From assembly GCA_963697065.1 (NCBI GenBank), contig CAVOMQ010000001.1:1410518-1474517 (forward strand): a stretch of DNA of 64,000 nt, given 5' to 3'. Each line of letters starts with the position of its first letter. Position 1 is the stretch's first letter. The DNA comes from an uncultured Gemmatimonadales bacterium. GTDB taxonomy: Bacteria > Gemmatimonadota > Gemmatimonadetes > Gemmatimonadales > GWC2-71-9. This document shows positions 992 to 40,479 of this stretch, piece after piece. The notes below the pieces were generated by a model. That model worked only from the letters and a program-made list of their open reading frames with translations, was not told the DNA's origin and did not search any database. The position numbers were made by a program, and so were the translations under genes.

Positions 992-3174
<2,183 letters not shown>

Positions 3175-11733: not shown

Positions 11734-11946
11734 ATGCCCGTGCTTCGACCGTCGCAGGACGTCCGTCCGGTAACCGAATTCCGGGCGAAGGCGTCCGCCT
11801 TCCTCGATCAACTCCACCGGACCGGCCGTCCGGTCATGCTGACGCAGCATGGCCGCTGCGCCGCCGTGCTCCTCGACGTCGAAGCGTACGAAGATCTGCT
11901 CGACGAACTCACCCATTTGCGCGAACAGAACGGCGGTGGTGCATGA
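11734..11946 (+). CDS. Phd/YefM-family antitoxin with no cognate toxin gene adjacent
   Basis: 70 aa from ATG 11734, with AAGGAG 7 nt upstream. Sequence 'VRPVTEFRAKASAFLDQLHRTGRPVMLTQHGRCAAVLLDVEAYEDLLDEL'. The stop overlaps the korA ATG (ATGA). Confidence 0.8.
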   Translation: MPVLRPSQDVRPVTEFRAKASAFLDQLHRTGRPVMLTQHGRCAAVLLDVEAYEDLLDELTHLREQNGGGA

Positions 11947-13861
11947 CCGACGTGATCGGAGGGCTGGCCACGTTCGGTGCCGCCACCGACGTCACGGTGG
12001 TACGGTGCCCGGAACACACCATCGAGATCGTATCCGACGCCGGCGAGGGCGCGCAGAAGTGCGGCCAGATCTTCGGCGCGGTATCGGCCAAGATGGGCAA
12101 CGGCGTGTGGACCGTGGAGATCATTCCGGCCGAAATCCAGCCGCCGGCGCGCGTTCCCGAAGGCGCCAGCGGTTACCGGATCCGGATCGGGCTAGCGGGC
12201 CGGTCACCAATTGGGGCGACGCCACCAACCTGGCGGTGGCGTTCAACGAGCAGGTGCTGCTGGCGCGCCACCGGCTGGGCGCGCTGGCGCCGGACGCCAT
12301 GCTGTTCATCGAAGACAAGTGGGCGACCGACGATGACGCCGACATCCGGGCGGCCTGGGACGCGGCGATGGTCGAACTCGGGCAGCGCCGCTACCGGATC
12401 ATGCCGGTGCCGATGGAAGCCGAGTGCCTGACGATGGTGGACAATCCCCGCAAGGGGAAGAACATGTTCGCGCTCGGCATGCTCGCCTGGATCTACCGGC
12501 GCGACCTCGACCGCATTCGCGACCAGATCGCCTTCGCGTTCCGCAAGAAGAGCGAAACGGTGTTCGAGCAGAACGTCGCGCTTGTTGCAGCTGGGACACG
12601 ACTGGGCGGCAGGGCATCTCGACTTCCGCGTCGACGTCGCGCCCCACGCCGGCGGATGACCCGCAAGTCGTGATGAATGGCAACGAGGCGCTGGCGCTCG
12701 GCGCGATCGCGGTCGGGGATGGAACTGTGCGCGATGTATCCGATCACGCCCGCCACGTCGGTATCGCACTACCTCGGCGAAGTGTTCGAACGGTTCGGCG
12801 GGATCGTGCATCAGGCGGAGGACGAGATCGCCGCCGCGGGCGTGGCGATCGGCGCGTCGTACTGCGGGGAAGGTGGCGTTCACCGTGACGTCGGGGCCCG
12901 GGCTGGCGCTGAAGACCGAGTTTCTCGGGCTGGCGGCGATGATCGAAATGCCGCTGGTGCTGATCGACGTGCAGCGCGGCGGGCCGAGCACGGGGCTGCC
13001 GACCAAGGTGGAACAGTCGGATCTGCTGGCGGCGCTGTTCGGACAGCCGGGCGACGCGCCGCATGTCATCATGGCGCCGGCGACGATCGAAGAGTGCTTC
13101 CAGGTGATGATCACGGCGCGCCGGATCGCGGAGACGTTCCGCGACGGTCGTGATGGTGCTGTCGGACGCCAATCTGGCGACCGGAGTGACGCCGTTCCGC
13201 GCGACCGGCGCCCGACGCGCGGTGGCAGGCGGCGCCGCTCGACCTGGCACCGGTGCCGGATGGCGAGCGGCCCTACGAGTGGAATCCGCGAGACCGGACT
13301 GTCGCGCCGTTTCATCCCGGGCCAGGCCGGGCGGGATGCACACCGTCACCGGGCTGTCGCACGACGAGCGCAGCAAGGTGGCGTACAGCTCGGGCGTGCA
13401 TCAGCGCGGCGTCGGCGATGCGCAGCCGCAAGCTGGCCGTGCTGCAGAGCCTGCTGTTGCCGCCGGTCGTCTACGGTGAGCCGGAGGGCGATCTGCTGGT
13501 CGTGGGGTGGGGGAGCACGAAGGGCGCGATCGAAGAGGCGGTGGACCGGGCGCGGGCGCGACGGCGGGCGGGTGTCGTCGCTGCACCTCCGCTTCCTTTC
13601 GCCGCTCGAGCCCGGGCTCACGGCAATCTTCCGCCGGTTCAGGCAGGTGCTCACGGTGGAAATCAATTACAGCGACGACCCGGACGATCCGTTCATCACC
13701 GAGGAGAATCGCCGTCGCGGGCAGCTGAGCATGCTGCTGCGCAACGCCACGCTGGTGGACGTCGACTGCTGGACGCGTGTGCCGGGCGAGCCGCTGCGAG
13801 CCGGGCGACGATTCTCGGACGCCATCGCAGCGCGCATGGCCGCGGGAGGGTGCCGTCATGA
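11943..13861 (+). pseudogene. korA: 2-oxoglutarate/2-oxoacid:ferredoxin oxidoreductase alpha (gamma-alpha fused) subunit, frame broken at least 10 times
   Basis: Fragments across track ORFs 11943..12431, 11849..12673, 12424..12888, 12677..13153, 12873..13925, 13150..13479 and 13253..13861 read colinearly. They give 'IVSDAGEGAQKCGQIFG', 'VTNWGDATNLAVAFNEQ', 'VVMNGNEALALGAIAVG', 'MYPITPATSVSHYL', 'HQAEDEIAAAGVAIGASYCG', 'FTVTSGPGLALKTEFLGLA', 'DVQRGGPSTGLPTKVEQSDL', 'VVMVLSDANLA' and 'LLVVGWGSTKGAIEEAV'. Confidence 0.8.
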
Positions 13862-14817
13862 CGGCATCGTGCGGTCTGCTTCGCGCTGCTCGACGAGGAC
13901 GACGAAACGCCGACATACGAGTTGAGCGACTACGAGGGCGCGCGGGCGCGCTGGTGTCCCGGGTGCGGCGACCACTCGGTGCTCACCGCCGTGGAACGGC
14001 TGCTGGTGGCCGAGCAGCTCAAGCCGGAGCAGACGGTCTTCGTATCCGGCATCGGGTGTTCCAGCCGGTTTCCGCACTACCTCAAGCACCTACGGATTTC
14101 ACGGCATTCACGGCCGGGCATTCCCGATCGCCACCGGCATCCGGCTGCATCGACCCGATCTCAAGGTGTTCGTGGTGATGGGTGACGGCGACTGCACCTC
14201 GATCGGTGCCGGGCACTGGGTGCATGCGCTGCGGTACAACCCCGACATGGTGGCGCTGCTGCTGGACAACGCGATCTACGGGCTGACGAAGAAGCAGACG
14301 TCGCCCACGACGCCGCAGGGATTTCCCAGCAACACCCAGCCGTACGGCAGCTGGTTGCGCGCCGCTCAATCCGCTGTCAGGTGGCGCTCGGCGTGACCAA
14401 CGCCTCGTTCGTGGCGCAGACCGCCGAATGGGTGCCGTCGCACCTCTACGCGACGCTGCGCGCGGCCTACGCCCATCCGGGCCTGGGTTTCGTGCGGATC
14501 CTGCAGCGGTGCCCGATGTATTCGGGCGCCATCTACCAGGGCGCCGTGCAGGATCCAGCCCAGATCAACGCTGCTGGTGCACGACGACGGCGTGGTGGTG
14601 CCGGAGCTGGACCGGATCTACACGACCCAGGTGGCGCACGATCCCCATGACCTCGACGCGGCCCGGCGCCTGGCCGGACAGCACCGACCGGTTCAACTCG
14701 GCGTGTTCTTCCGCGACGTCCCGGCCGCGGTACGAGGAGATGCGGCGGGTGCCACCGCGTACCGCTGACGAGCGGCTGACGGCGCTCGAACAGGAGTTCG
14801 ACCGATATGCCGTCTGA
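13858..14817 (+). pseudogene. korB: 2-oxoacid:ferredoxin oxidoreductase beta (TPP-binding) subunit, frame broken at least 5 times
   Basis: Fragments in ORFs 13922..14185, 14166..14396, 14381..14650, 14577..14768 and 14428..14817 give 'WCPGCGDHSVLTAV', 'SGIGCSSRFPHYL', 'GFHGIHGRAFPIATG' (my translation), 'VVMGDGDCTSIGAGHWVHALRYNPDM', 'DNAIYGLTKKQTSPTTP' and the tail 'LTALEQEFDRYAV'. The ATG at 13858 overlaps the korA stop (ATGA). Confidence 0.8.
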
Positions 14818-15797
14818 TCGATCCGCGTCGCGCTGGGCGCTGGCCGCGCTGGCCAAGCCGATAGCGGAGTTCCGCGCGGTGCGTGCAGGGCGCGCTGACG
14901 CAGCGCGAACGCCTTCCTCGACGACCAGGCGGGCCATGGCGAACGCACCGGCAATGTCGCGCCGGCGCCGAGCTGGGCCCGTTCGCGGCGAGGCGCCTGA
15001 CGCCGCGGAACGCTTCGCTGCGCTCTTTCCCACAGCCGCCAGGCCGACCCGGCGGAGCTGGCAGCGCTGCGATCGCGCGGTGGCGACGCTGCAGGCTGTG
15101 TGCGCCCGGGGCGACGCGCTGTTCGTGGTCGACGTGCCGCCCGGCGGCCGGATGGCCGCGATGGTGGAACGCCGCGCTGGCGCGGCCGGCCGGGCGTTCG
15201 GCGCGGTGATGCTCGCCGAACGCGATGCGCGGACCGGGCCGGTGACGGCCGGCCGAGCACGAATCGTTGCTGTCTCGCGACGTGGAGTTTCCGGTGTGGA
15301 CCAACGACGGAGCGCCGCATCGCTCCGCCGCTGCGTGGTCGCGGTGGACGGGTCCGAGGTTCACGCCGGCGCGCTGGCGGAATTCGCCGACGGCCGCGAG
15401 AAGCTCGTGCTGGTGGTGCGCGGCGCGAGCGCGCCGGCGCCGCTGGCGCGGTGCATCACGCCGGGCACGCTGGTGCTGCAGACCGACGACGGCCGCGGCC
15501 TCGACCGCGTGGCGGCGTTCGACGGTCCGGCCATCGCCGCCATCGTGCCCGAGGGCGCCGCCGACGTTCCTGCACGATCCCGACGCGGGCCGCGAATCGT
15601 GGCAGCGCCTGACGATCTGGAACGCTGGTGAACCGCGCCCAAGGGGCATTGGCGGCGAGCAGCGCGCTGGCAGATGGAAGAGGACCGCGCTGCTTGCCGA
15701 GCTGGCGCGCACGCCGTTCGCCGTTGCCGGGCCGCGCCGGTCCGGCGCCCGGCGAGTCGGCGCGGCCGACGCCGTGGACCGCATTGCGCGTGGCTGA
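14807..15797 (+). pseudogene. Hypothetical protein between korB and rnfB, frame broken several times
   Basis: High third-position GC can be followed on the plus strand only by hopping between ORFs 14807..15631, 14883..15209 and 15267..15797. Pieces: 'ALFVVDVPPGGRMAAMVERRAG', 'RDVEFPVWTNDGAP', 'VVAVDGSEVHAGALAEFADGREKLVLVVRGASAP', 'FLHDPDAGRESWQRLTIWNAGE'. I recognise no family. The minus-strand ORFs here are R/A/P-rich shadows. Confidence 0.4.
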
Positions 15798-15832
15798 GTC
15801 GGGCAGTCCGGACTGAGGGGAGCACGCTGACG

Positions 15833-16678
15833 ATGACTCCTCCACGCCATCCTGGTGCTCGGCGGCATCGGGCTGGTCTTCGCGCTCTTCCTCGCGCTGG
15901 CCAACGCGGCTCTGGGTGTGGGAGGATCCGCGCATCGACGTGGTGGCGTCGATGCTGCCCAACGCCAACTGCGGCGCCTGCGGGCATCCGGGCTGCCGCG
16001 CGTTTGCCGAGGGCGCGGTGGCGGGAACGATCATCGCCGTCGGAGTGCACCGTGGCGAGCGACGATCGTGCACCAGCACGATCGCCGGGTTCCTGGGCGT
16101 CGACGCCGGCACCGCGGTGCGCAAGGTGGCGCGGCTGGCTGTGCGCCGGCGGCATGCGACGTGGCGGTGACCGCGCGCCGAATACCGGGGCTTGCCGACG
16201 TGCGCGCCGCGGCCGCGGTGGCGGGCGGCGGCAAGGGCTGCGCCTGGGGGTGCCTCGGACTCGGCGATTGCGAACGGTGGTGCACCTTCGACGCCATCCG
16301 GATGAGCGACACCGGGCTGCCGGTGGTCGACCTGGCGTTGTGTACGGCGTGCGGCGATTGTGTCGAGGCCTGCCCAAGGGGCTGTTCACGCTGCTGCCGC
16401 ACCGATCATCACCTGCTGGTGCAGTGCCGGAATCTGCGGTCGCGGCGACGACGCGCTGGCACAATGCCAGCGTGGCGTGCACGGCGTGCGGCAAGTGCGT
16501 GCTGGACGCGGCGCCGGGGCTGATCAGCGTCGCCAGCGGCGTGGCGGTCATCGATTACGACTCAACGCCCTGGCCGACGAGACGCGCGGTGGCGCGCTGT
16601 CCGACCGGCGCGATCGTGTGGCTCACCGGCGCCCAGTTCCAACCGGCGCAGTGCTGGCCGGGAGTGAGACGCGCATGA
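15833..16678 (+). pseudogene. rnfB: RnfB-type iron-sulfur subunit, frame broken many times
   Basis: Pieces in ORFs 15855..16523, 15916..16170 and 15674..16678 give 'ILVLGGIGLVFALFLALANA', 'EDPRIDVVASMLPNANCGACGHPGCRAFAEGAVAG', 'GGGKGCAWGCLGLGDCERWCTFDAI', 'LCTACGDCVEACPKGLF' and 'VACTACGKCVLDAAPG'. Confidence 0.75.
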
Positions 16679-19600
16679 AGCTCTGGAAGAAGGGAACGCA
16701 GCCGGCGACGCCGCTCGCGGCGCCGCCGTATCCCGGGCACGTTGCGTGCGCTCGACGGCAGCGCAGCGGTCGTGGCGATGGAGACGGCGGGCGGCGAGGC
16801 GGCCGGTGCCTATCCGATCACTCCATCGACGCAGATGGGCGAGGGGTGGGCCGCGGCGGTGGCGGACGGGCGGCGCAACGTGTTCGGGCGGCGGCTGCTC
16901 TTCTTCGAGCCCGAGGGAGAGCACGCCGCGGCGGCGGTCACCGCCGGCATGGCGATGTCGGGACTCCGGGCCACGAACTTCTCGAGCGGGCAGGGCATCG
17001 CCTACATGCACGAGTCGCTCTACGCGGCGGTGGGGAAGCGGCTCACGTACGTGCTCAACGTGGCGGCGCGCGCGATCACCAAGCAGGCGCTCAACGTTCA
17101 CGCCGGGCCACGACGATTATCACGCCGTCGACGACACCGGCTTCTTCCAGCTCTTCGCCAAGAACGTCCAGGAGGCCGCCGACCTCAACCTCATCGCGCA
17201 CCGGATCGCCGAGCTGTCGCTCAATCCGGGGATCTGCGCGCAGGACGGATTTCTCACCAGCCACGTCATCGAGACCATCCGGTTGCCGGAACCGGAGTTG
17301 ATCAGCCGCTACCTCGGCGATCCGTCGGACCGCATACCGTCGCCGACGCCGGCGCAGCGGCTGGTGTTCGGTGAGGAGCGGCGGCGCATTCCCGAGATGT
17401 TCGATCTCGACTATCCGGCGATGCTCGGCGTGGTGCAGAACCAGGACAGTTACGCGCAGGGCGTGGCGGCGCAGCGGCCGTTCTACTTCGACCACGTGGC
17501 CGCGCTGGCCGACCGGGCGTTCGAGGAGTTCGCCGGCGCTCACCGGCCGCCGGTACGCGCGCGCGGCCGGATACCGGATGGACGACGCGGAATGGGTGAT
17601 CGTGGGGCAGGGTTCGGTGGTGCCCAACGCCGAGGCGGTGGCGGATTACCTGCGCGACTCGCGCGGGCTCAAGGTCGGGCGTGTCTGAATCTCACCATGT
17701 TCCGCCCGTTTCCCGCCGACCTGGTGATCGGGATGCTGGCCGGCAAACGCGGCGTGGCGGTGCTGGAGCGCACCGATCAGCCGCTGGCGGTCGACCGCCG
17801 ATGCTGCGCGAGATCCGGGCGGCGATGTTGCAGGGCGTCGAGAACGGCAGGGCTCCGGCCAGTGGAACGGCGTCGCACGCGGGACTGCCGGCCGTTCGCG
17901 CCGAGCAGGTGCCGGACTGTCTATTCGGCGTGCTTCGGCCTCGGCAGCCGCGACCTGCAGCCGGAAGATCTCGTCGCGGCGGTCGACAACATGCTTCCCG
18001 GCGGTGCCGGCCGACGCCAGTTCTATCTCGGCATCGACTTCGTCCGTCGCGGCACGCGGCTACCCAAGTTGCAGATCTGGCAGGAACAGCTGCTCGACGA
18101 GTATCCCGGGCCTGGCGAATCTGTCGCTGCCGCGTGGCACGAGTGTGAACCTCTTGCCGGCGGGATCGACCGCGGTCCGCATCCATTCGGTCGGCGGGTG
18201 GGGCGCCATCACCATGGGAAAGAACCTGGCGATGACGTCGTTCGAGCTGTTCGGCATGGACATCAAGGCCAATCCGAAATACGGCTCGGAGAAGAAGGGC
18301 CAGCCGACGACGTTCTACGCCGTGCTGGCGCACGAACCGATCCGGCTCAACTGCGAGTTGAAACACGTCGACGTGGTGTTGTCGCCGGATCCCAACGTCT
18401 TCCGCCACAGCGATCCGCTGGACGGGCTCGCCGACGACGGCGTGTTCGTGATGCAGAGTGACCTCGATCCCGAGGCGTTCTGGGCCACGCTCCCTGCCCG
18501 GGCCCGCACCGCGATCCGCGCCCGGCGGATCAGGGTGCTACGTGCTGGATGCATTTGCCATTGCCCGCGAAGAGGCGAGCGACGCCGAACTGCGGTACCG
18601 GATGCAGGGCGCGGCGTTCCTGGGAGCGTTCTTTCGCACCGCGCCGCTGCTGGAGCGGGAAGGGGCGAGAGAAGACCGCCTCTTCGAGGGAATCCGCGGG
18701 CAGCTGACGAAGAAGTTCGGTCATCGCGGGGCGGCGGTGGTGGACGACAACCTGCGCGTCATCCGGCGTGGCTTTGACGGAAGTGCACGCGGTGCGCTGC
18801 GACGGAGACCGAGGGTGCCGACGCGCCGGGTGCGGTGCCGCACATTCCGGCCTTGCTCGACATGGCCGACGCCGAGCCGGGGGTGGGCAACGCCGGCCGC
18901 TTCTGGGAGCAGGTGTGCGCCGTCTGCGCGCTCGGGCAGGACGGGATTGCCGATCCGTTCGCCGCCATCAGCGCCATTCCGGCTGCCACCGGAGCGGTGC
19001 GCGACATGAGCGGTATCCGGATGGAAGTGCCGCGGTTCATCGCCGAGCGGTGCACCGGGTGCGCGCAGTGCTGGGTTCAATGTCCCGACTCCGCGATTCC
19101 GGGGCTGGTCAACAGCGTCGAGGATCTGTTGACGACGGCGGTGGCGGTGGCGGCGGTGGGCACGTCGCTCGATGCGGTGCGGCCGATTCTCAAGCCGTGG
19201 GGCCGCGAAGTCGCAGCGCCTGCTGGCGAAGGAGCCGGCGCTGTGTGTCCCGGAGGCGTTTGCCAGGGGGTATCAGGCGGCGGTGGCCAGGATGGAGTGG
19301 GACGCCGACCGTGCCGCGACTGTCGGCGCGGCGGCGGAGCTGGTGCAGGCGCGACTGGCCGAATTCCCGCTGGCCCGGACCAGGCCCTTCTTCGACGCCG
19401 TCGAAGGGCGGCAGAAGAGTGGCGGCGGACTGTTGTCGGTGACGGTCAATCCGGAAGCGTGCAAGGGGTGCAACCTCTGTGTGGCAGTGTGCCCCGACGG
19501 CGCGCTGGTGACGGTCAGGCAGGACGACGCGACGCTGGAGCGACTGCGCCGCAACTGGGCACTGTGGCAGCGGTTGCCGGACACCGACGACCGGTTCGTG

Positions 19601-21784
19601 AATATCTCCGAACGTGGACGAGGGCATCGGCGTGCTGTCGTCGCTGCTGCTCCAAAGGGAACCTACCGCTCGATGGTGGGCGGCGACGGGGCCTGCATGG
19701 GGTGCGGTGAGAAGACCGCGGTGCACCTGGTCGTGTCGGCGATCGACGCGGCGATGCAGCCGCGCGTGCGGCGCATGGTGGCGCAAGCTTGACGCGAGTT
19801 GATCAGGCACTCGACGGACAGGCGCGCGAACTGCTCTCGGCCGACGCCGACCTGAGGTGGCGCCACCGCCAGAACGGGCCGCTGGCGCTGCAATTGCCGC
19901 CGGCGAAGCGCGAGCGGCTGCGGGTGTTGAACGAGTCGCTCCACCAGTTGCGCGATATCGGTGGCGGTACGAAGCGGGCCCGAGCGGCAACGGTCGCGCC
20001 TCGCTCGGCATGGCCAACAGCACCGGCTGCTCGTCGGTGTGGGGCAGCACGTATCCGTACAATCCGTATCCGTTTCCCTGGGTGAACCATCTCTTCCAGG
20101 ATGCTCCTTCGATCGCCATCGGCATGTTCGAAGCGCAGATGCGCAAGATGGCCGATCAGTTCGTGGCGATCCGGCGCGCCGACCTGTTGCGCGACGGCGG
20201 CGTACGACGCCGGCGGTGCACGACGAGGAGCTCGGCAACCTCACGTGGGAGCAGTTCACCGACGATGAATTCGCGCTCTGTCCGCCGATCGTCGCGATGG
20301 GCGGCGACGGCGCGATGCTGGACATCGGATTCCAGAATCTGTCGCGGCTGCTGGCCAGCGGCAAACCGATCCGGGTGGTGGTGCTGGATACGCAGGTCTA
20401 CTCGAACACCGGGGGACAGGCGTGCACGTCGGGCTACACCGGACAGGTGGCCGACATGTCGGCGTGGGGGAAGGTGCAGCACGGCAAGACCGAAACGCGC
20501 AAGGAAGTGGCGTTGATCGCCATCGCCCACCGCGGGGTATACGTCCATCAGTCGTCGCAGGCGTCGGCGTCCCACTTGCTGGCGGGGGTGTTGAAGGGGT
20601 TGCACAAGCGGCGTCCGGTGCTGATCAACCTCTACACGCCATGTCCGGTGGAGCACGGCCTGGCGGACGACTGGTCGCAGCACGCGGCGCGCCTGGCGCT
20701 GGAAAGCCGTGCGTTTCCCTTCCTGACGTTCGATCCTGATCTCGGCGACACCTACGCCGATGCGCTGTAGCTGGAAGGGAACCCGGCGGTCGACGAGCTG
20801 TGGCCGGCGTACACGCTCCACTATCTCGACGGTACCGGCGCCGAGCAGTCGCTCGAAGTCCCGCTGACGATCGCCGATTGGGCCGCCACGGAAGCCCGCT
20901 TCAAGCACCACTTCACCGAGTTGCCGCCGGACGCCGCCGACGAGGCGCTGGTGCCGTTCCACGAATTCGTCGCGCTCGCCGCCACCGAGCGCGAGGGCCG
21001 GACCCCCTACATCAATGTCGTGCGCCAGGATCGGTCGCTGGGCCGGCTGCAGGTCTCGGTCGAGATCGTCCGGCTCGCCGAAGAACGGCTGCAATTCTGG
21101 TCGCAGCTGCGGCAACTGGCGGGACTCGAAATCGCGCCATCGGTGCGGGACGCGGTGGTGGGCGATGTCGGCGCGCAGCTGGCAGTGCGGGAGGCGGCGC
21201 TGCGCGCCGAATACGACACCAAGCTGGCGCAGCTCAAGGCGGAATACCCAGCGCAGATCGCACGGCGGCTGGCAGAGGGACTCTTGCGCCGGGCGGGAAG
21301 CTCGGCGGCGGTGGCCGACCTGCTGGCCTCGATGCCGGTGGCGGCCGGGGCGCGGTTGCCGGCACGAGCGCCGGCCAACACCGGCTCTGCCTCACCGCGC
21401 CAACCGGCGCCGAACATTGCGGCACCGGCAGTGCCGGTCGTGGCGGGCGTGGCCGAAGAGGTGGCCGATCCCTCGCTCGAACCGGTTGCGGCGATCACGA
21501 CCGCCGTCGCAGTGGCCGACGACGATGAAGCGGTGGTGCTCGAGGCCTACATCGAGTCGGCTCGCTGTACCACGTGCAACGAATGCACCAATCTCAGCAA
21601 GAAGATCTTCGCCTACAACGCCGACAAGCAGGCGTACGTGAAGGACGCGGCGGCGGGAACGTTCCAGCAGCTGGTGCTGGCCGCCGAGCGGTGCCCGGTG
21701 TCGATCATCCATCCCGGCACGCCGCTGAACCCGAAGGAAAAGGACGTGGAACGGTGGCTCAAACGTGCCACGAAGTTCAATTGA
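16675..21784 (+). pseudogene. Giant (~1700-codon) pyruvate/2-oxoacid:ferredoxin oxidoreductase fused to a C-terminal linker and ferredoxin domain; at least 17 frame switches plus one in-frame TAG
   Basis: Colinear PFOR pieces across about 15 track ORFs. They include 'LDGSAAVVAMETAGGEAAGAYPITPSTQMGE', 'FFEPEGEHAAAAVTAGMAMSGLRATNFSSGQG', 'GGWGAITMGKNLAMT' and 'KYGSEKKGQPTTFY'. The 2x[4Fe-4S] domain reads 'ERCTGCAQCWVQCPDSAIP' / 'NPEACKGCNLCVAVCPDGAL'. The TPP motif is 'GGDGAMLDIGFQNLSRLLASGKPIRVVVLDTQVYSNTGGQ'. A TAG at 20768-20770 interrupts 'DTYADAL*LEGNPAVDE' in the same frame. The C-terminus is 'CTTCNECTNL...AAERCPVSIIHPG'. The ATG at 16675 overlaps the rnfB stop. Confidence 0.85.
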
Positions 21785-21791
21785 GGCGGCG

Positions 21792-23120
21792 ATGACGTTC
21801 GCGAGCGGGTTCCGCCACGGCGTGCATCCGCCGGAAGAGAAGGAGTTGACGCATCACCTTCCGATCCGGCGGATGCCATACCCCGACGAAATCGTACTGC
21901 CGCTGCGCCAGCACGCCGGCAATCCGGCCAGGGTATGTGTGGCGGTCGGCGATCACGTCGAACGGGGTGATCCGGTCGGCACCGCCGACGGCTTCGTGTC
22001 GGTGCCGATCCATGCGTCGGCGGCGGGGACGGTGACCGGCATCGAATGGTGGCCCCATCCCGACGGGTCGATGGCCGAAGCGGTGCGCATCCGGGTGGAC
22101 CGTTACGCGACGCAGCTGCCCCGGCCGCGCATGGTGCCCCACTGGGAGGGGCTTTCGACGGAGCAGGTGGTCCGGGCGGTGCAGGATGCCGGCGTGGTGG
22201 GACTCGGTGGCGCGGCGTTCCCGACGCACGTCAAGCTGGCGCCGCCAAGCGATCACCACGTCGACACGCTGATCATCAACGGCGCCGAGTGCGAGCCGTA
22301 TCTGACGTCGGACCACCGCACGATGGCGGAGTATCCGCGACCGGGTGATGTTCGGCATCCGCATCATGATGCGCACCCTCGGCGTGACGCGGTGCGTGGT
22401 GGGCATCGAGCGGAACAAGCCGGACGCGATGGAAGCGATGCGCGCCGCGGCGCCGGCCGATCTCGACGTCACGATCCTGCCGCTCACGGTGAAGTATCCG
22501 CAGGGCGCCGAGAAGATGCTGATCAAGGCGGTCACCGGTGTCGAGGTTCCGTCCGGGAGACTGCCGGTCACCGTCGGCGTGGTGGTGCAGAATGTCGGTT
22601 CGGTGGCGGCGATCGCCGAGGTGTTCGAGACCGGCCTGCCGCTCATCGAACGGATCGTCACGGTCTCGGGCCACGGTCTGCGTCGGCCCGCGAACCTGAT
22701 CGTGCCGGTGGGTACGAGGCTGCGCGATCTGCTGGCATACTGTGACGGCGTGACGCCTGATGCCGCCGAAGTGGTGATCGGCGGCCCATGATGGGGCAGG
22801 CGCAATCCGATCTCGACGCCCCCGTGCTCAAGGGGACGACCGGCGTGGTGGTGCTCACGTCGCACGAGACGCGGCTGCCGCGCTCGTATCCCTGCATCCA
22901 TTGCGGACGCTGTCTGGAAGCGTGTCCGGTGTTCCTCAATCCGTCGCTGCTCGGCGATTTTGCGCGCGTCGGCCGGTATGACGACATGGTCGATCTGCAC
23001 CTGGCCGACTGCATGTTGTGCGGGTCGTGCGCCTACGTCTGCCCGTCCAACATCCCGCTGTCGCAGTTGTTCCAGGCGAGCAAGGTGGCGTTGCGCCGGG
23101 CGAAGGTGGCGGCGGCATGA
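21792..23120 (+). pseudogene. rnfC: RnfC (NADH-binding, 2x[4Fe-4S]) subunit, two frame switches
   Basis: ORFs 21765..22745, 22345..22791 and 22788..23120 give 'FRHGVHPPEEKELT', 'VVGLGGAAFPTHVKL', 'LIINGAECEPYLTSDHRTM', 'CIHCGRCLEACPVFL' and 'CMLCGSCAYVCPSNI'. Switches lie near ~22335 and ~22787. GAGG lies upstream of the ATG. Confidence 0.85.
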
Positions 23121-24123
23121 GTCGCGTGCTGCCGGCCGACCTGGTATCGTCACCGCGTCGCCGCACGTGCGGTCGCAGGATTCCACACCGCGGATCATGT
23201 GGACCGTCGTGGCGACCTGGTGCCGGTGGTGGCCGCGGCGGCGTGGTTCTTCGGCGTCGAGCGCCCTGCTGGTCATCGCGGCCTGCATGCTGGGCGCGGT
23301 GGCCACCGAACGGGCGTTCGGCAGCGGCGGCACACTGGCCGACGGCTCGGCGGCGATGACCGGGCTGCTGCTGGGGCTGTCGTTGCCGGCCGGGCTTCCG
23401 CTCTGGATGGCGGCGCTGGGTGGCGCGTTCGGCATCGGATTCGGCAAGGTGGTCTGGGGTGGGTTGGGGCAGAACGTGTTCAACCCGGCGTTGCTCGGCC
23501 GGGCGTTCCTGCAGGCCGCGTTTCCGGTGGCGATCACCACCTGGCCCGCCGTGGGCGGCCGCTTCTGGACGCTCCGCGGCGATCTCTTCGCGCTGCCGTT
23601 TCTCCATCCCGAGACCGACGCGATCACGTCGGCGACCCCGCTGGGGCTGCTCAAGTTCGAGGGAAAAGGAACCAGCCTGGCGCACCTGATCATCGGCAAC
23701 ACCGGTGGATCATTGGGTGAGACGGCGGCATTGCTGATCCTGGCCGGCGGGCTCTATCTCGCGTGGCGCCGCTATCTCGACTGGCGAATTCCCGCCGCGA
23801 TCCTGGTGACGGTCGCGGTGCTGAGCGGGGTCATTCACGGCGTCGATCCGCAGCGGCCGAGTGCGCTGTTCATGCTCTTCTCGGGCGGATTGATGCTGGC
23901 CGCCGTCTACATGGCCACCGATCCGGTGACCTCGCCCGTCACCAACACCGGCCGGTGGGTGTTCGGCGTCGGTGTGGGCGTGCTGGTGGTGATCATCCGT
24001 ATCTGGGGCGGGCTGCCCGAGGGCGTGATGTACGCCATCCTGTTCATGAACGCGTTGGTTCCGTTCATCAATCGCGCGACGCAGCCGCGGGTGTTCGGTA
24101 CGCGCCTGGGAGGTGCGGCGTGA
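23117..24123 (+). pseudogene. rnfD: RnfD membrane subunit; three frame switches in the first ~150 bp, intact afterwards
   Basis: The C-terminal 290 aa in ORF 22960..24123 contain 'FGKVVWGGLGQNVFNPALLGRAFL', the flavinylation-type motif 'DAITSATPLG', and 'YMATDPVTSP'. The N-terminus 'MSRVLPADLV / SSPHVRSQDSTPRIMWTVVAT / LVPVVAAAAWFFG' is spread over three frames. The last switch is near ~23265. Confidence 0.85.
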
Positions 24124-38092: not shown

Positions 38093-39541
38093 GTGACGCG
38101 TCACGAATCGATGGCCTGGGGGCCCGCACCGGAGTCGGCGGCCGTCGCCAACGAGTGGCTCGACCGCCGCCAGCGGCGCTTCGGGCACTATATCGACGGC
38201 CATTGGACCACTCCGGGCGAGACGTTCGCCGTGTTCAACCCGGCGACGGGCGCCGAACTGGCGCAGGTGACCGAGGGGAGCGAAGACGACGTCGACGCCG
38301 CGGTGACCGCGGCGCGCCGGGCGCTACCGGCGTGGCGGGCGCTGGGCGGCCACGGGCGGGCGCGGTGGCTCTACGCCATCGCCCGCGGTGTGCAGCGGAA
38401 TTCGCGGCTGTTCGCCGTGATCGAAAGCCTCGACAACGGCAAGCCGATCCGCGAGTCGCGCGACATCGACATCCCGCTGGTGGCGCGCCATTTCTATCAT
38501 CACGCCGGTTGGGCGCAATTGCTCGACCGCGAATTCCCGGGGATGGAAGCGGTCGGCGTCGTGGGGCAGGTGATTCCCTGGAACTTCCCGCTGCTGATGC
38601 TGGCGTGGAAGATCGCGCCGGCCCTTGCGGCCGGGAACACGGTGGTGCTCAAGCCGGCCGAATACACGCCGCTCACCGCGCTCTGCTTTGCCGACATGCT
38701 CGAGGACATCGGGCTGCCGGCGGGCGTGGTGAACATCATCACCGGCGACGGGCGCACCGGCGCGGCGCTGGTCGACGCATCCCGACGTCGACAAGGTGGC
38801 CTTCACCGGCTCGACCGACGTGGGACGCGCCATTCGCGTCGGCCACCGCGGGCAGCGGCAAGAAGCTCACGCTCGAACTCGGCGGCAAGTCGCCGTTTGT
38901 GGTGTTCGACGACGCCGATCTCGATTCGGTGGTCGAAGGCGTGGTCGACGCCATCTGGTTCAACCAGGGGCAGGTCTGCTGCGCCGGGTCGCGCATCCTG
39001 GTGGCGGAAAGCGTCGCCGAGCGGCTCGTCGCGAAGCTCCGCGCGCGCATGGAGAAGCTGCGCGTCGGCTCGCCGCTCGACAAGGCGGTCGACATCGGCG
39101 CGATCGTCGCCCCGGTGCAGCTTGCAGCGCATCGAGGAGCTGGTGAAGCAGGGGATTGACCGAGGGCGCCACCTGCTGGCAGCCTTCGTGGAGCGTGCCG
39201 AAGGACGGCCTGTTCTATCCGCCGACGCTCTTTACCGATGTGGCGCCGGCGCCACCGTCGCGCAGGTGGAGATCTTCGGCCCGGTGGTGGTGCTGATGAC
39301 GTTCCGCACGCCCGGACGAAGCGGTCGAACTCGCCAACAACACCCGCTACGGACTGGCCGCCAGTGTCTGGAGCGAGAACCTGAACACCGCGCTCGACAT
39401 CGCGCCGCGAATCAAGGCCGGCACCGTGTGGGTCAACTGCACCAACATGTTCGACGCCGCGTCGCGGGTTCGGCGGCTACCGCGAAAGCGGTTACGGGCG
39501 CGAGGGCGGTCGCGAAGGGATGTACGAGTACCTGCCGGCCG
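38093..39541 (+). pseudogene. Aldehyde dehydrogenase 1, frame broken at least 8 times; 3' boundary unresolved
   Basis: Pieces in ORFs 38093..40030, 38796..39146, 38155..39159 and 39520..40479 give 'VIPWNFPLLMLAWKIAPALAAGN', 'VAFTGSTDVGRAI', 'LELGGKSPFVVF', 'NQGQVCCAGSRILV' (catalytic Cys), 'EIFGPVVVLMTF' and 'GREGMYEYL'. No stop is visible at the expected end. Confidence 0.75.
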
Positions 39542-40479
39542 ATGCACGGCGTGGCGATCCGACCGCGTGCCGTCGGCGATGCCGAGCATCCGACGACGGC
39601 GTCTCGCGCCGGGAACGCGGAAGCGACCGACACGCCGCCGCATCGATCGCACGCCCAAGCTCTACATCGGCGGGAAGCAGCGGCGTCCCGACGGCGGCTA
39701 CGCGCTGGCCGTCCATGGATGCACGTGGCGAACGCGTGTCGCCGAAGTCGGGACGTGGCAATCGCAAGGACATCCGCGAACGCCGTCGAGGCGGCGCACG
39801 CGCGCGCATGGCTGGCACGCCGCCACGGCACATCTGCGTGCCCAGGTGCTCTACTATGTCGCCGAGAACCTGGCGGCGCGCCGCGACGAGTTCGTCGGGC
39901 AACTCAACGCGCCTTACCGGCGAGGACGGCGGCCGCGAGATCGACGCCGCCATTCGGCGGTGTTTCTCGTATGCCGCGTGGGCCGACAAGTACGACGGCG
40001 CGGTGCATCACACGCCGCTGCGCAACGTGACGCTGGCGATGCCCGAGCCCGTGGGCGTGATCGGCATCGCCGCACCGGACGAGGCGCCGCTTCTCGGCTT
40101 CCTCTCGTTGGTGCTTCCCGCGATCGCGATGGGTAACCGCACGGTGGTGATCCCGTCACCGCGCCATCCGCTGCTGGCTACGGACCTGTACCAGGTGTTC
40201 GATACCTCCGACCTCCCCGGCGGCGTGGTGAACATCGTCACCGGTTATCGGCGGGAATTGTTGGCTCCGCTCGCCGGTCACGACGACGTCGACGCCGTCT
40301 GGGTTTTCGGCGATCATGCCGAAGCCGCAGAGGCAGAGAAACTGTCCGCGGGCAACATGAAGCGGACCTGGACCGAATGGACGGTGCGCGACTGGCTCGA
40401 TCCGCGGGAAGGAGAAGGCCCGGAGTTCCTGCGTCACGCCACCCAGGTGAAGAACATCTGGGTGCCGTACGGCGCCTGA
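39542..40479 (+). pseudogene. Aldehyde dehydrogenase 2 (deoC-linked ALDH paralog); frame broken several times before ~39950, intact afterwards; start uncertain
   Basis: Motifs: 'DRTPKLYIGGKQRRPDGGY', 'GNRKDIR.AVEAAH', 'AHLRAQVLYYVAENL', then continuous 'YAAWADKYDGAVHHTPLRNVTLAMPEPVGVIGI...GGVVNIVTG...VKNIWVPYGA'. Confidence 0.7.

What the first reader, a model, noticed from the sequence alone, without database searches (positions are those of the whole stretch)
11943..23270. An 11-kb block saturated with frame switches has razor-sharp boundaries next to >14 kb of intact genes
Seen in the sequence:
- korA, korB, the unknown gene, rnfB, the PFOR fusion, rnfC and the first 150 bp of rnfD can only be read by hopping between frames.
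- By eye the switch points include ~12190, 12600, 12715, 12870, 13145, 13250, 13290, 13335, 13405, 13555, 13900, 14095, 14365, 14570, 14735, 16735, 17105, 17535, 17685, 17795, 17900, 18110, 18535, 19205, 19612, 19655, 19790, 19975, 20200, 22335, 22787, 23150, 23215 and 23265.
- That is roughly one switch per 250-300 bp.
- From ~23270 to ~37890 (rnfD remainder through deoC) I see none. Upstream, the 2.7-kb kinase gene and its neighbours are also intact.
- Every fragment still encodes highly conserved motifs, and I see only one in-frame stop.

Inference: dozens of indels against about one nonsense change, with preserved protein-level sequence, fits localised indel-type sequence error better than evolutionary decay. 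An example would be an uncorrected long-read patch bridging a hard-to-assemble conserved region. The alternative is very recent inactivation of the ferredoxin-dependent module.

Four junctions I inspected look like single-base changes: dnaK gccGggc, dnaK acgCgcc, rnfC ccgCgac, and a missing base in rnfC ggcccatg.
Basis: partly seen in the sequence, partly recalled or inferred. Interest (0 to 1): 0.6.

Follow-up and report, generated by a model that had tools for sequence, protein, structure and literature searches.

The report
Assembly-error frameshift patch in rnf/PFOR operon
An 11-kb stretch of energy-metabolism genes looks shattered by 75 small insertions and deletions, but these are almost certainly leftover sequencing and assembly errors in a metagenome-derived genome, so the genes are most likely intact and ordinary.

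Summary
Between 12191 and 23260 the window has 75 indels that are not multiples of three (57 insertions, 18 deletions). They are measured against two same-genus genomes that keep korA-korB-unknown-rnfB-PFOR-rnfC-rnfD intact and differ from each other only by in-frame indels. rnfD after 23260, rnfG, rnfE and rnfA have none.

The genes do not look decayed:
- dN/dS equals that between the two intact relatives.
- There is one clean in-frame stop, against 10-39 expected under neutral decay.
- Insertions outnumber deletions 3:1 and avoid homopolymers.

The block is not unique. A frame-tracking scan finds about 28 such patches in this 3.18-Mb, 5-contig Gemmatimonadales genome (completeness 92.9%). 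They hit atpA, groEL and dnaK.

The block is really two patches, 12191-20210 and 22337-23260, separated by 2.1 kb of clean sequence.

Verdict: localised residual long-read consensus error, not biology.

The parts
12191..20210 (+). Patch A: 70 of the 75 window-specific non-3n indels. About 1 per 115 bp overall, and 14-16 per kb at 15-17 kb where GC is 73-75%.
   Evidence: Three-way DNA alignments with G005 and G008, parsed. Frameshift-aware protein alignment.
20211..22336 (+). Error-free 2.1-kb stretch inside the reported block (PFOR C-terminal third and rnfC N-terminal part). It contains the single in-frame TAG at 20768-20770.
22337..23260 (+). Patch B: 5 indels (+1 at 22337, -1 at 22787, +2 at 23145, -1 at 23216, +1 at 23260) in rnfC and the first 150 bp of rnfD.
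11943..13860 (+). korA-like 2-oxoacid:ferredoxin oxidoreductase alpha/gamma subunit. Read through 11 frameshifts. 81% aa identity to G005.
   Evidence: Pfam POR_N, POR and PFOR_II on the G005 orthologue.
13850..14817 (+). korB-like beta subunit (TPP-binding), about 8 frameshifts.
14807..15827 (+). Conserved 333-aa protein with no Pfam family, at least 10 frameshifts.
15819..16680 (+). rnfB (Fe-S subunit), about 14 frameshifts.
16675..21784 (+). Single-chain pyruvate:ferredoxin oxidoreductase with a C-terminal ferredoxin domain (about 1,690 aa). 17 frameshifts plus the TAG at 20768.
21792..23120 (+). rnfC, 2 frameshifts. The TGA stop overlaps the rnfD ATG.
23117..24123 (+). rnfD. Three indels in the first 150 bp, then clean.

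Best explanation
The frame switches are consensus errors of the assembly, not mutations in the organism.

The genome is a near-closed metagenome-assembled Gemmatimonadales genome of 5 contigs. Its base-level quality is high over most of its length. It also contains about 28 patches of 0.5-8 kb where residual long-read-type indel errors were never corrected. These are mostly 1-nt insertions outside homopolymers, at 0.5-1.5% per base. This 11-kb block is the largest, and is in fact two adjacent patches.

The korAB, rnfB, PFOR and rnfC genes are most likely intact and functional in the cell.

Shown:
- The indel tally and its spectrum.
- Unchanged selective constraint.
- Genome-wide recurrence, including housekeeping genes.

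Inferred:
- The cause is a failure of polishing or low-coverage long-read consensus in these patches.
- The platform is unknown. The insertion-dominated, non-homopolymer profile resembles PacBio CLR more than nanopore.
For: 1. The window has 75 non-3n indels. Over the same 11 kb, G005 and G008 differ from each other only by 3n indels in coding sequence.
2. G005, G008 and G021 (another genus) carry the same gene order intact.
3. Nei-Gojobori omega for window versus relatives is 0.13-0.28 (0.4 for the unknown gene). That equals G005 versus G008, and equals the clean part of rnfD.
4. One in-frame stop is seen. If the 75 indels were neutral mutations with 5-20 substitutions each, 10-39 stops are expected. 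P is at most 6e-4.
5. There are 57 insertions to 18 deletions (p = 7e-6). Of 50 one-base insertions, 34 are not adjacent to an identical base, which is less homopolymer context than random positions.
6. The genome-wide frame-HMM finds 460 stop-less same-strand frame switches and 28 clusters. The +1 direction is in excess: 104:42 in clusters and 189:103 in singles.
7. The clusters hit atpA/atpG, groEL, gcvP, ppsA and nuoF.
8. atpA aligned to G005 shows about 12 non-3n indels, 11 of them insertions.
9. dnaK in this window is split over 3 frames.
10. No second copy of kor, PFOR or rnf genes exists. rnfD (after its first 150 bp), rnfG, rnfE and rnfA directly downstream read without frameshifts.
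11. Completeness is only 92.9% for a 5-contig genome.
12. Literature: PacBio CLR errors are about 8% insertions and 3% deletions. Localised heterogeneity or low coverage can leave parts of metagenome assemblies unpolishable (10.1101/2021.08.23.457338).
Against:
- No independent assembly of the same population exists in the protein database (best other rnfD is 90% identical).
- None exists in JGI metagenome contigs either. The errors are therefore inferred, not seen.
- Why these particular stretches escaped correction is unexplained. There is no intragenomic repeat. GC alone does not predict patch location, since patch GC ranges 0.64-0.75. Equally conserved neighbours are clean.
- The TAG at 20768 lies in the clean gap, so it may be a real polymorphism or a separate substitution error.
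Confidence: 0.9

Rival explanations
1. This is still an artefact, but produced actively. Reads from co-occurring related strains or species were piled onto these stretches. A collapsed-haplotype consensus or a polisher then inserted extra bases at variant sites. On this view the patches were not simply left unpolished.
For: - Insertions dominate and lie outside homopolymers.
- Patch edges are sharp.
- Many patches fall in conserved housekeeping genes.
- Gemmatimonadales relatives with this operon are very common in metagenomes: 7,780 RnfD hits and 364 PFOR loci.
- The proovframe authors note that localised intra-population heterogeneity makes data unpolishable.
Against: - Equally conserved rnfD and rnfA are clean.
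- Patches also hit poorly conserved genes, such as the unknown gene at 57% identity and glycosyltransferase-like genes.
- No mosaic substitution pattern was detectable.
- This cannot be tested without reads.
Confidence: 0.25
2. Real, very recent inactivation of the ferredoxin-dependent module. The indels are in the DNA, and korAB, rnfB, PFOR and rnfC are pseudogenes.
For: - The frame breaks are unambiguous in the deposited sequence.
- One genuine-looking nonsense codon is present.
Against: - Omega is unchanged.
- One stop is seen against 10-39 expected.
- The insertion bias and lack of homopolymer context are opposite to what I recall of known bacterial indel spectra, namely deletion-biased and slippage at runs (own knowledge).
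- The same pattern in atpA, groEL and dnaK would be lethal or severely deleterious.
- There is no spare copy.
- rnfG, rnfE, rnfA and rnfD after its first 150 bp read without frameshifts.
Confidence: 0.03
3. Programmed recoding (ribosomal frameshifting or transcriptional slippage) restores the proteins.
For: None beyond the fact that the stitched frames encode conserved protein.
Against: - There are 75 sites with no shared slippery motif, in both directions, and with 2-, 4- and 16-nt events.
- Relatives encode the same proteins in one frame.
Confidence: 0.005

Closest known systems
Indel-induced artificial frameshifts and truncated gene calls in long-read (PacBio CLR or nanopore) genome and metagenome assemblies. 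This is the problem addressed by proovframe (10.1101/2021.08.23.457338) and discussed for nanopore MAGs in PMC9262707.
   Same: - Non-3n 1-2-nt indels break otherwise conserved genes.
- Protein sequence is recoverable by frame hopping.
- The effect is genome-wide and lowers the completeness estimate.
- Stretches with low coverage or heterogeneity stay uncorrected.
   Different: - The errors here are strongly clustered in patches with sharp edges on an otherwise clean background.
- They are insertion-dominated and not homopolymer-associated, unlike the classic nanopore, 454 or Ion Torrent homopolymer deletions.
Genuine pseudogene accumulation in reductive genome evolution (for example Mycobacterium leprae and recent host-restricted symbionts; own knowledge).
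   Same: Many frame-disrupted genes lie next to intact ones.
   Different: - Here there are almost no stop codons.
- There is no relaxation of dN/dS.
- The bias is towards insertion rather than deletion.
- Essential genes are hit.
- Damage comes in kb-scale patches that ignore gene boundaries.

Membership tests
Long-read assembly indel artefact | Non-3n indels relative to intact orthologues, while the orthologues themselves differ only in-frame. | tested here: met
   75 window-specific non-3n indels. G005 and G008 show only 3n gaps in coding sequence.
Long-read assembly indel artefact | Coding signal and selective constraint are unchanged across the breaks. | tested here: met
   Omega equals that of intact relatives and of the clean flank. 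GC3 stays 0.8-0.9 in the stitched frames.
Long-read assembly indel artefact | Recurs across the assembly, including indispensable single-copy genes. | tested here: met
   28 clusters. atpA, groEL and dnaK are hit.
Long-read assembly indel artefact | Indels are absent from accurate reads of the same sample. | not testable with these tools
No independent assembly of the population was found.
Long-read assembly indel artefact (nanopore, 454 or Ion Torrent homopolymer subtype) | Errors are concentrated in homopolymer runs and are mostly deletions. | tested here: not met
   34 of 50 one-base insertions lie in run length 1. Insertions to deletions are 57:18.
Genuine pseudogenes | Nonsense codons accumulate together with frameshifts. 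| tested here: not met
   One TAG is seen against 10-39 expected.
Genuine pseudogenes | Relaxed selection, with omega rising towards 1 on the affected lineage. | tested here: not met
Genuine pseudogenes | The affected genes are dispensable or redundant. | tested here: not met
   The only F1 alpha subunit, dnaK and groEL carry the same damage. No second kor, PFOR or rnf copy exists.
Programmed frameshifting | One or a few sites with a conserved slippery motif, shared by orthologues. | tested here: not met
   75 heterogeneous sites. Orthologues are in a single frame.

The most novel reading that the evidence does not exclude
The extra bases are really in the DNA. That would imply an unknown, patch-wise mutational process that is insertion-biased, independent of homopolymers and tends to create CpG. 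It would have struck kb-scale tracts, including housekeeping genes, so recently that no other decay has accumulated. One possible source is error-prone repair synthesis in a subpopulation that dominated the long-read library.
Probability: 0.02. Interest if true: 0.8.

Novelty: not a real feature. Interest (0 to 1): 0.07.

Why it matters
Practical consequences only.
- Automated annotation of this genome will call korAB, rnfB, PFOR, rnfC, atpA, groEL, dnaK and dozens of other genes pseudogenes or fragments.
- The organism would then be wrongly scored as lacking ferredoxin-dependent 2-oxoacid oxidation, the Rnf complex, and even ATP synthase.
- Other findings from this genome that rest on frame breaks should be read as artefacts until reads say otherwise.
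- The underlying locus, korAB-unknown-rnfB-PFOR/ferredoxin fusion-rnfCDGEA, is a conserved and intact operon in related Gemmatimonadales. It is better studied in those genomes.

Tried and rejected
- Independent assembly of the same population, attempt 1: a protein search with the clean RnfD part gave 90% identity as the best non-self hit, on a 3.7-kb JGI contig that starts only at rnfD.
- Intragenomic repeat or second copy as a cause of misassembly: none found.
- GC content as a predictor of patch location: patch GC is 0.64-0.75 against 0.68 for the genome, so it does not predict location. Within the block, density does rise with GC.
- Genome-wide count of internal in-frame stops by codon, to look for a TAG excess: confounded by same-frame neighbouring genes, so abandoned.
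- Test of the 'both alleles inserted at third codon positions' idea: considered and not run. Gap placement beside mismatches would bias it.
- Plain tblastn under-resolves the breaks, because high-GC off-frames stay open. It was replaced by a frameshift-aware DP alignment and DNA alignments.
Full report
**What the window is**
- The window is C1:1410518-1474517 of a 3.18-Mb, 5-contig, 68% GC genome.
- Its completeness estimate is 92.9%.
- Names attached to its closest protein relatives place it in Gemmatimonadales.

**Checking the observation**
- A third-position GC plot and a six-frame codon-usage Viterbi path trained on the genome's own long ORFs both change frame every few hundred bases from about 12.2 to 23.3 kb.
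- Both run in single frames afterwards.
- Same-genus genomes G005 and G008, and G021 from another genus, carry the same gene order as single intact ORFs: korA, korB, a 333-aa unknown, rnfB, a roughly 1,690-aa PFOR-ferredoxin fusion, rnfC and rnfD.
- Pfam on the G005 proteins confirms the names.
- A frameshift-aware protein-to-DNA alignment against the G005 proteins needs 64 frameshifts: korA 11, korB 8, unknown 10, rnfB 14, PFOR 17, rnfC 2 and rnfD 2.
- The same alignment needs none in rnfG, rnfE or rnfA.

**Nucleotide-level tally**
- I aligned the window with G005 and G008 DNA in seven overlapping segments and parsed the gaps.
- Between 12191 and 23260 the window has 75 private indels whose length is not a multiple of three.
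- 57 are insertions (50 of 1 nt, 5 of 2 nt, 2 of 4 nt). 18 are deletions (13 of 1 nt, 4 of 2 nt, 1 of 16 nt in the unknown/rnfB junction).
- Over the same 11 kb, G005 and G008 differ from each other only by 3-, 9-, 12- and 21-nt gaps within coding sequence.
- A 2,127-bp gap without any event (20210-22337) cannot be chance at the local rate. The block is therefore two patches: 12191-20210 and 22337-23260.
- The outer edges are real. P(no event in the following 14.6 kb at the block's rate) is about 1e-43.
- The upstream kinase, PP2C phosphatase and aminotransferase are intact.

**Are the genes decaying?**
- Nei-Gojobori omega between the window and either relative is 0.13-0.28 for korA, korB, rnfB, PFOR and rnfC, and 0.4 for the unknown gene.
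- These are the same values as between the two intact relatives, and as in the clean part of rnfD.
- Only one clean in-frame stop exists: TAG at 20768, where both relatives have TCG. It lies in the error-free gap.
- In these coding sequences 2.6% of random substitutions make a stop. If the 75 indels were neutral mutations accompanied by 5-20 substitutions each, 10-39 new stops are expected.
- P(at most 1 stop) is 6e-4 or less.
- The substitution-to-indel ratio used here is from my own knowledge of bacterial mutation spectra.

**Error spectrum**
- Insertions outnumber deletions 57:18 (p = 7e-6).
- 34 of 50 single-base insertions differ from both neighbours. That is less homopolymer context than random positions in the block.
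- The inserted base is G in 25 cases and C in 13. 17 of the 25 G insertions follow a C.
- Real bacterial 1-nt indels arise mainly by slippage in runs and are deletion-biased (own knowledge). This spectrum is the opposite.
- It resembles the insertion-dominated profile quoted for PacBio CLR, about 8% insertions against 3% deletions (10.1101/2021.08.23.457338).
- The platform cannot be established from sequence alone.

**The block is not unique**
- The frame-HMM finds 460 same-strand frame changes without a stop codon across the genome.
- 167 of them fall in 28 clusters of 4 or more within 1.2 kb.
- Both clustered and single events show the excess of the +1 (net insertion) direction: 104:42 and 189:103.
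- Stitched translations show the clusters hit ATP synthase alpha and gamma, GroEL, glycine-cleavage P protein, PEP synthase, NuoF, an RND pump, an M14 peptidase and others.
- I checked atpA (contig C5) directly against G005. It has about 12 non-3n indels, 11 of them insertions.
- In this window, dnaK (992-2890, minus strand) is split into three HSP70 fragments in three frames.
- An aldehyde-dehydrogenase pair at 38.8-39.9 kb has at least 6 switches.
- There is no second copy of any kor, PFOR or rnf gene.
- The block has no repeat elsewhere in the genome.
- An organism cannot plausibly carry a dozen frameshifts in its only F1 alpha subunit, so the pattern belongs to the assembly.

**Mechanism (inferred)**
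- The clean background with sharp-edged dirty patches fits an assembly whose consensus was corrected almost everywhere. The exceptions would be stretches where correction failed.
- Possible reasons are low or ambiguous coverage by the accurate data, gap filling with long-read consensus, or locally mixed populations. The proovframe authors note that such regions can be 'unpolishable'.
- I could not decide among these sub-mechanisms.
- Conservation alone does not set the edges, because rnfD and rnfA are as conserved and clean.
- GC does not predict patch location, although it modulates density within the block.

**What could not be done**
- No independent assembly of the same population exists in the protein collection (best non-self RnfD is 90% identical).
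- None exists in JGI metagenome contigs either.

**Earlier notes of this scan (leads, not evidence)**
- They independently report the dnaK and aldehyde-dehydrogenase islands and the TAG.
- For the M14 peptidase patch, another agent reached the same artefact conclusion.

**Verdict**
- Observation confirmed and sharpened.
- This is not a real biological feature.
- The residual possibility that the insertions are real is about 2-3%.

Noticed in passing
window 992-2890 (-): dnaK is readable only as three HSP70 fragments (profile positions 313-598, 116-270 and 1-101) in three frames. This is another small error island in the same window.
   Followed up: yes
window 38814-39912 (+): At least 6 stop-less frame switches in 1.1 kb, across what read as two adjacent aldehyde dehydrogenase genes (motifs read by eye, no Pfam run). 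This is a third error island.
   Followed up: partly
window 20768-20770: A single in-frame TAG in PFOR where G005 and G008 have TCG (Ser). It lies inside the 2.1-kb indel-free stretch. It is either a substitution error or a real polymorphism, independent of the indel patches.
   Followed up: partly
genome.fa C5:171086-172661 (-) and C1:2385682-2387230 (-): The only F1 ATP synthase alpha gene carries about 12 non-3n indels. groEL is split over three frames. Both are on other parts of the assembly and show the same insertion-biased signature.
   Followed up: yes
genome.fa C2:2-103 (-): The start of contig C2 encodes GroEL residues 2-34 (91% identical to the C1 copy). This looks like a second groEL cut by the contig end, or an unresolved contig overlap.
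   Followed up: no
L011 2187-3638 (-), L013 4548-5951 (-): In G005 and G008 a roughly 470-aa membrane transporter gene sits between rnfD and rnfG. By eye it looks NhaD/citrate-transporter-like; this was not tested. The window lacks it and goes straight from rnfD to rnfG.
   Followed up: no
window 21459-21497: A 39-nt in-frame insertion, private to the window, in the Ala/Pro-rich linker between the PFOR body and the C-terminal ferredoxin domain. G005 and G008 also differ here by 9-21-nt in-frame gaps, so this is natural length variation of the linker.
   Followed up: partly
window 12191-23260: Among single-base insertions, 17 of 25 inserted G follow a C and 6 of 13 inserted C precede a G. There is thus a tendency to create CpG, with strand asymmetry. 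Several G insertions in atpA, whose gene is on the opposite strand, also follow a C on the contig plus strand. This may be a platform or basecaller signature.
   Followed up: partly
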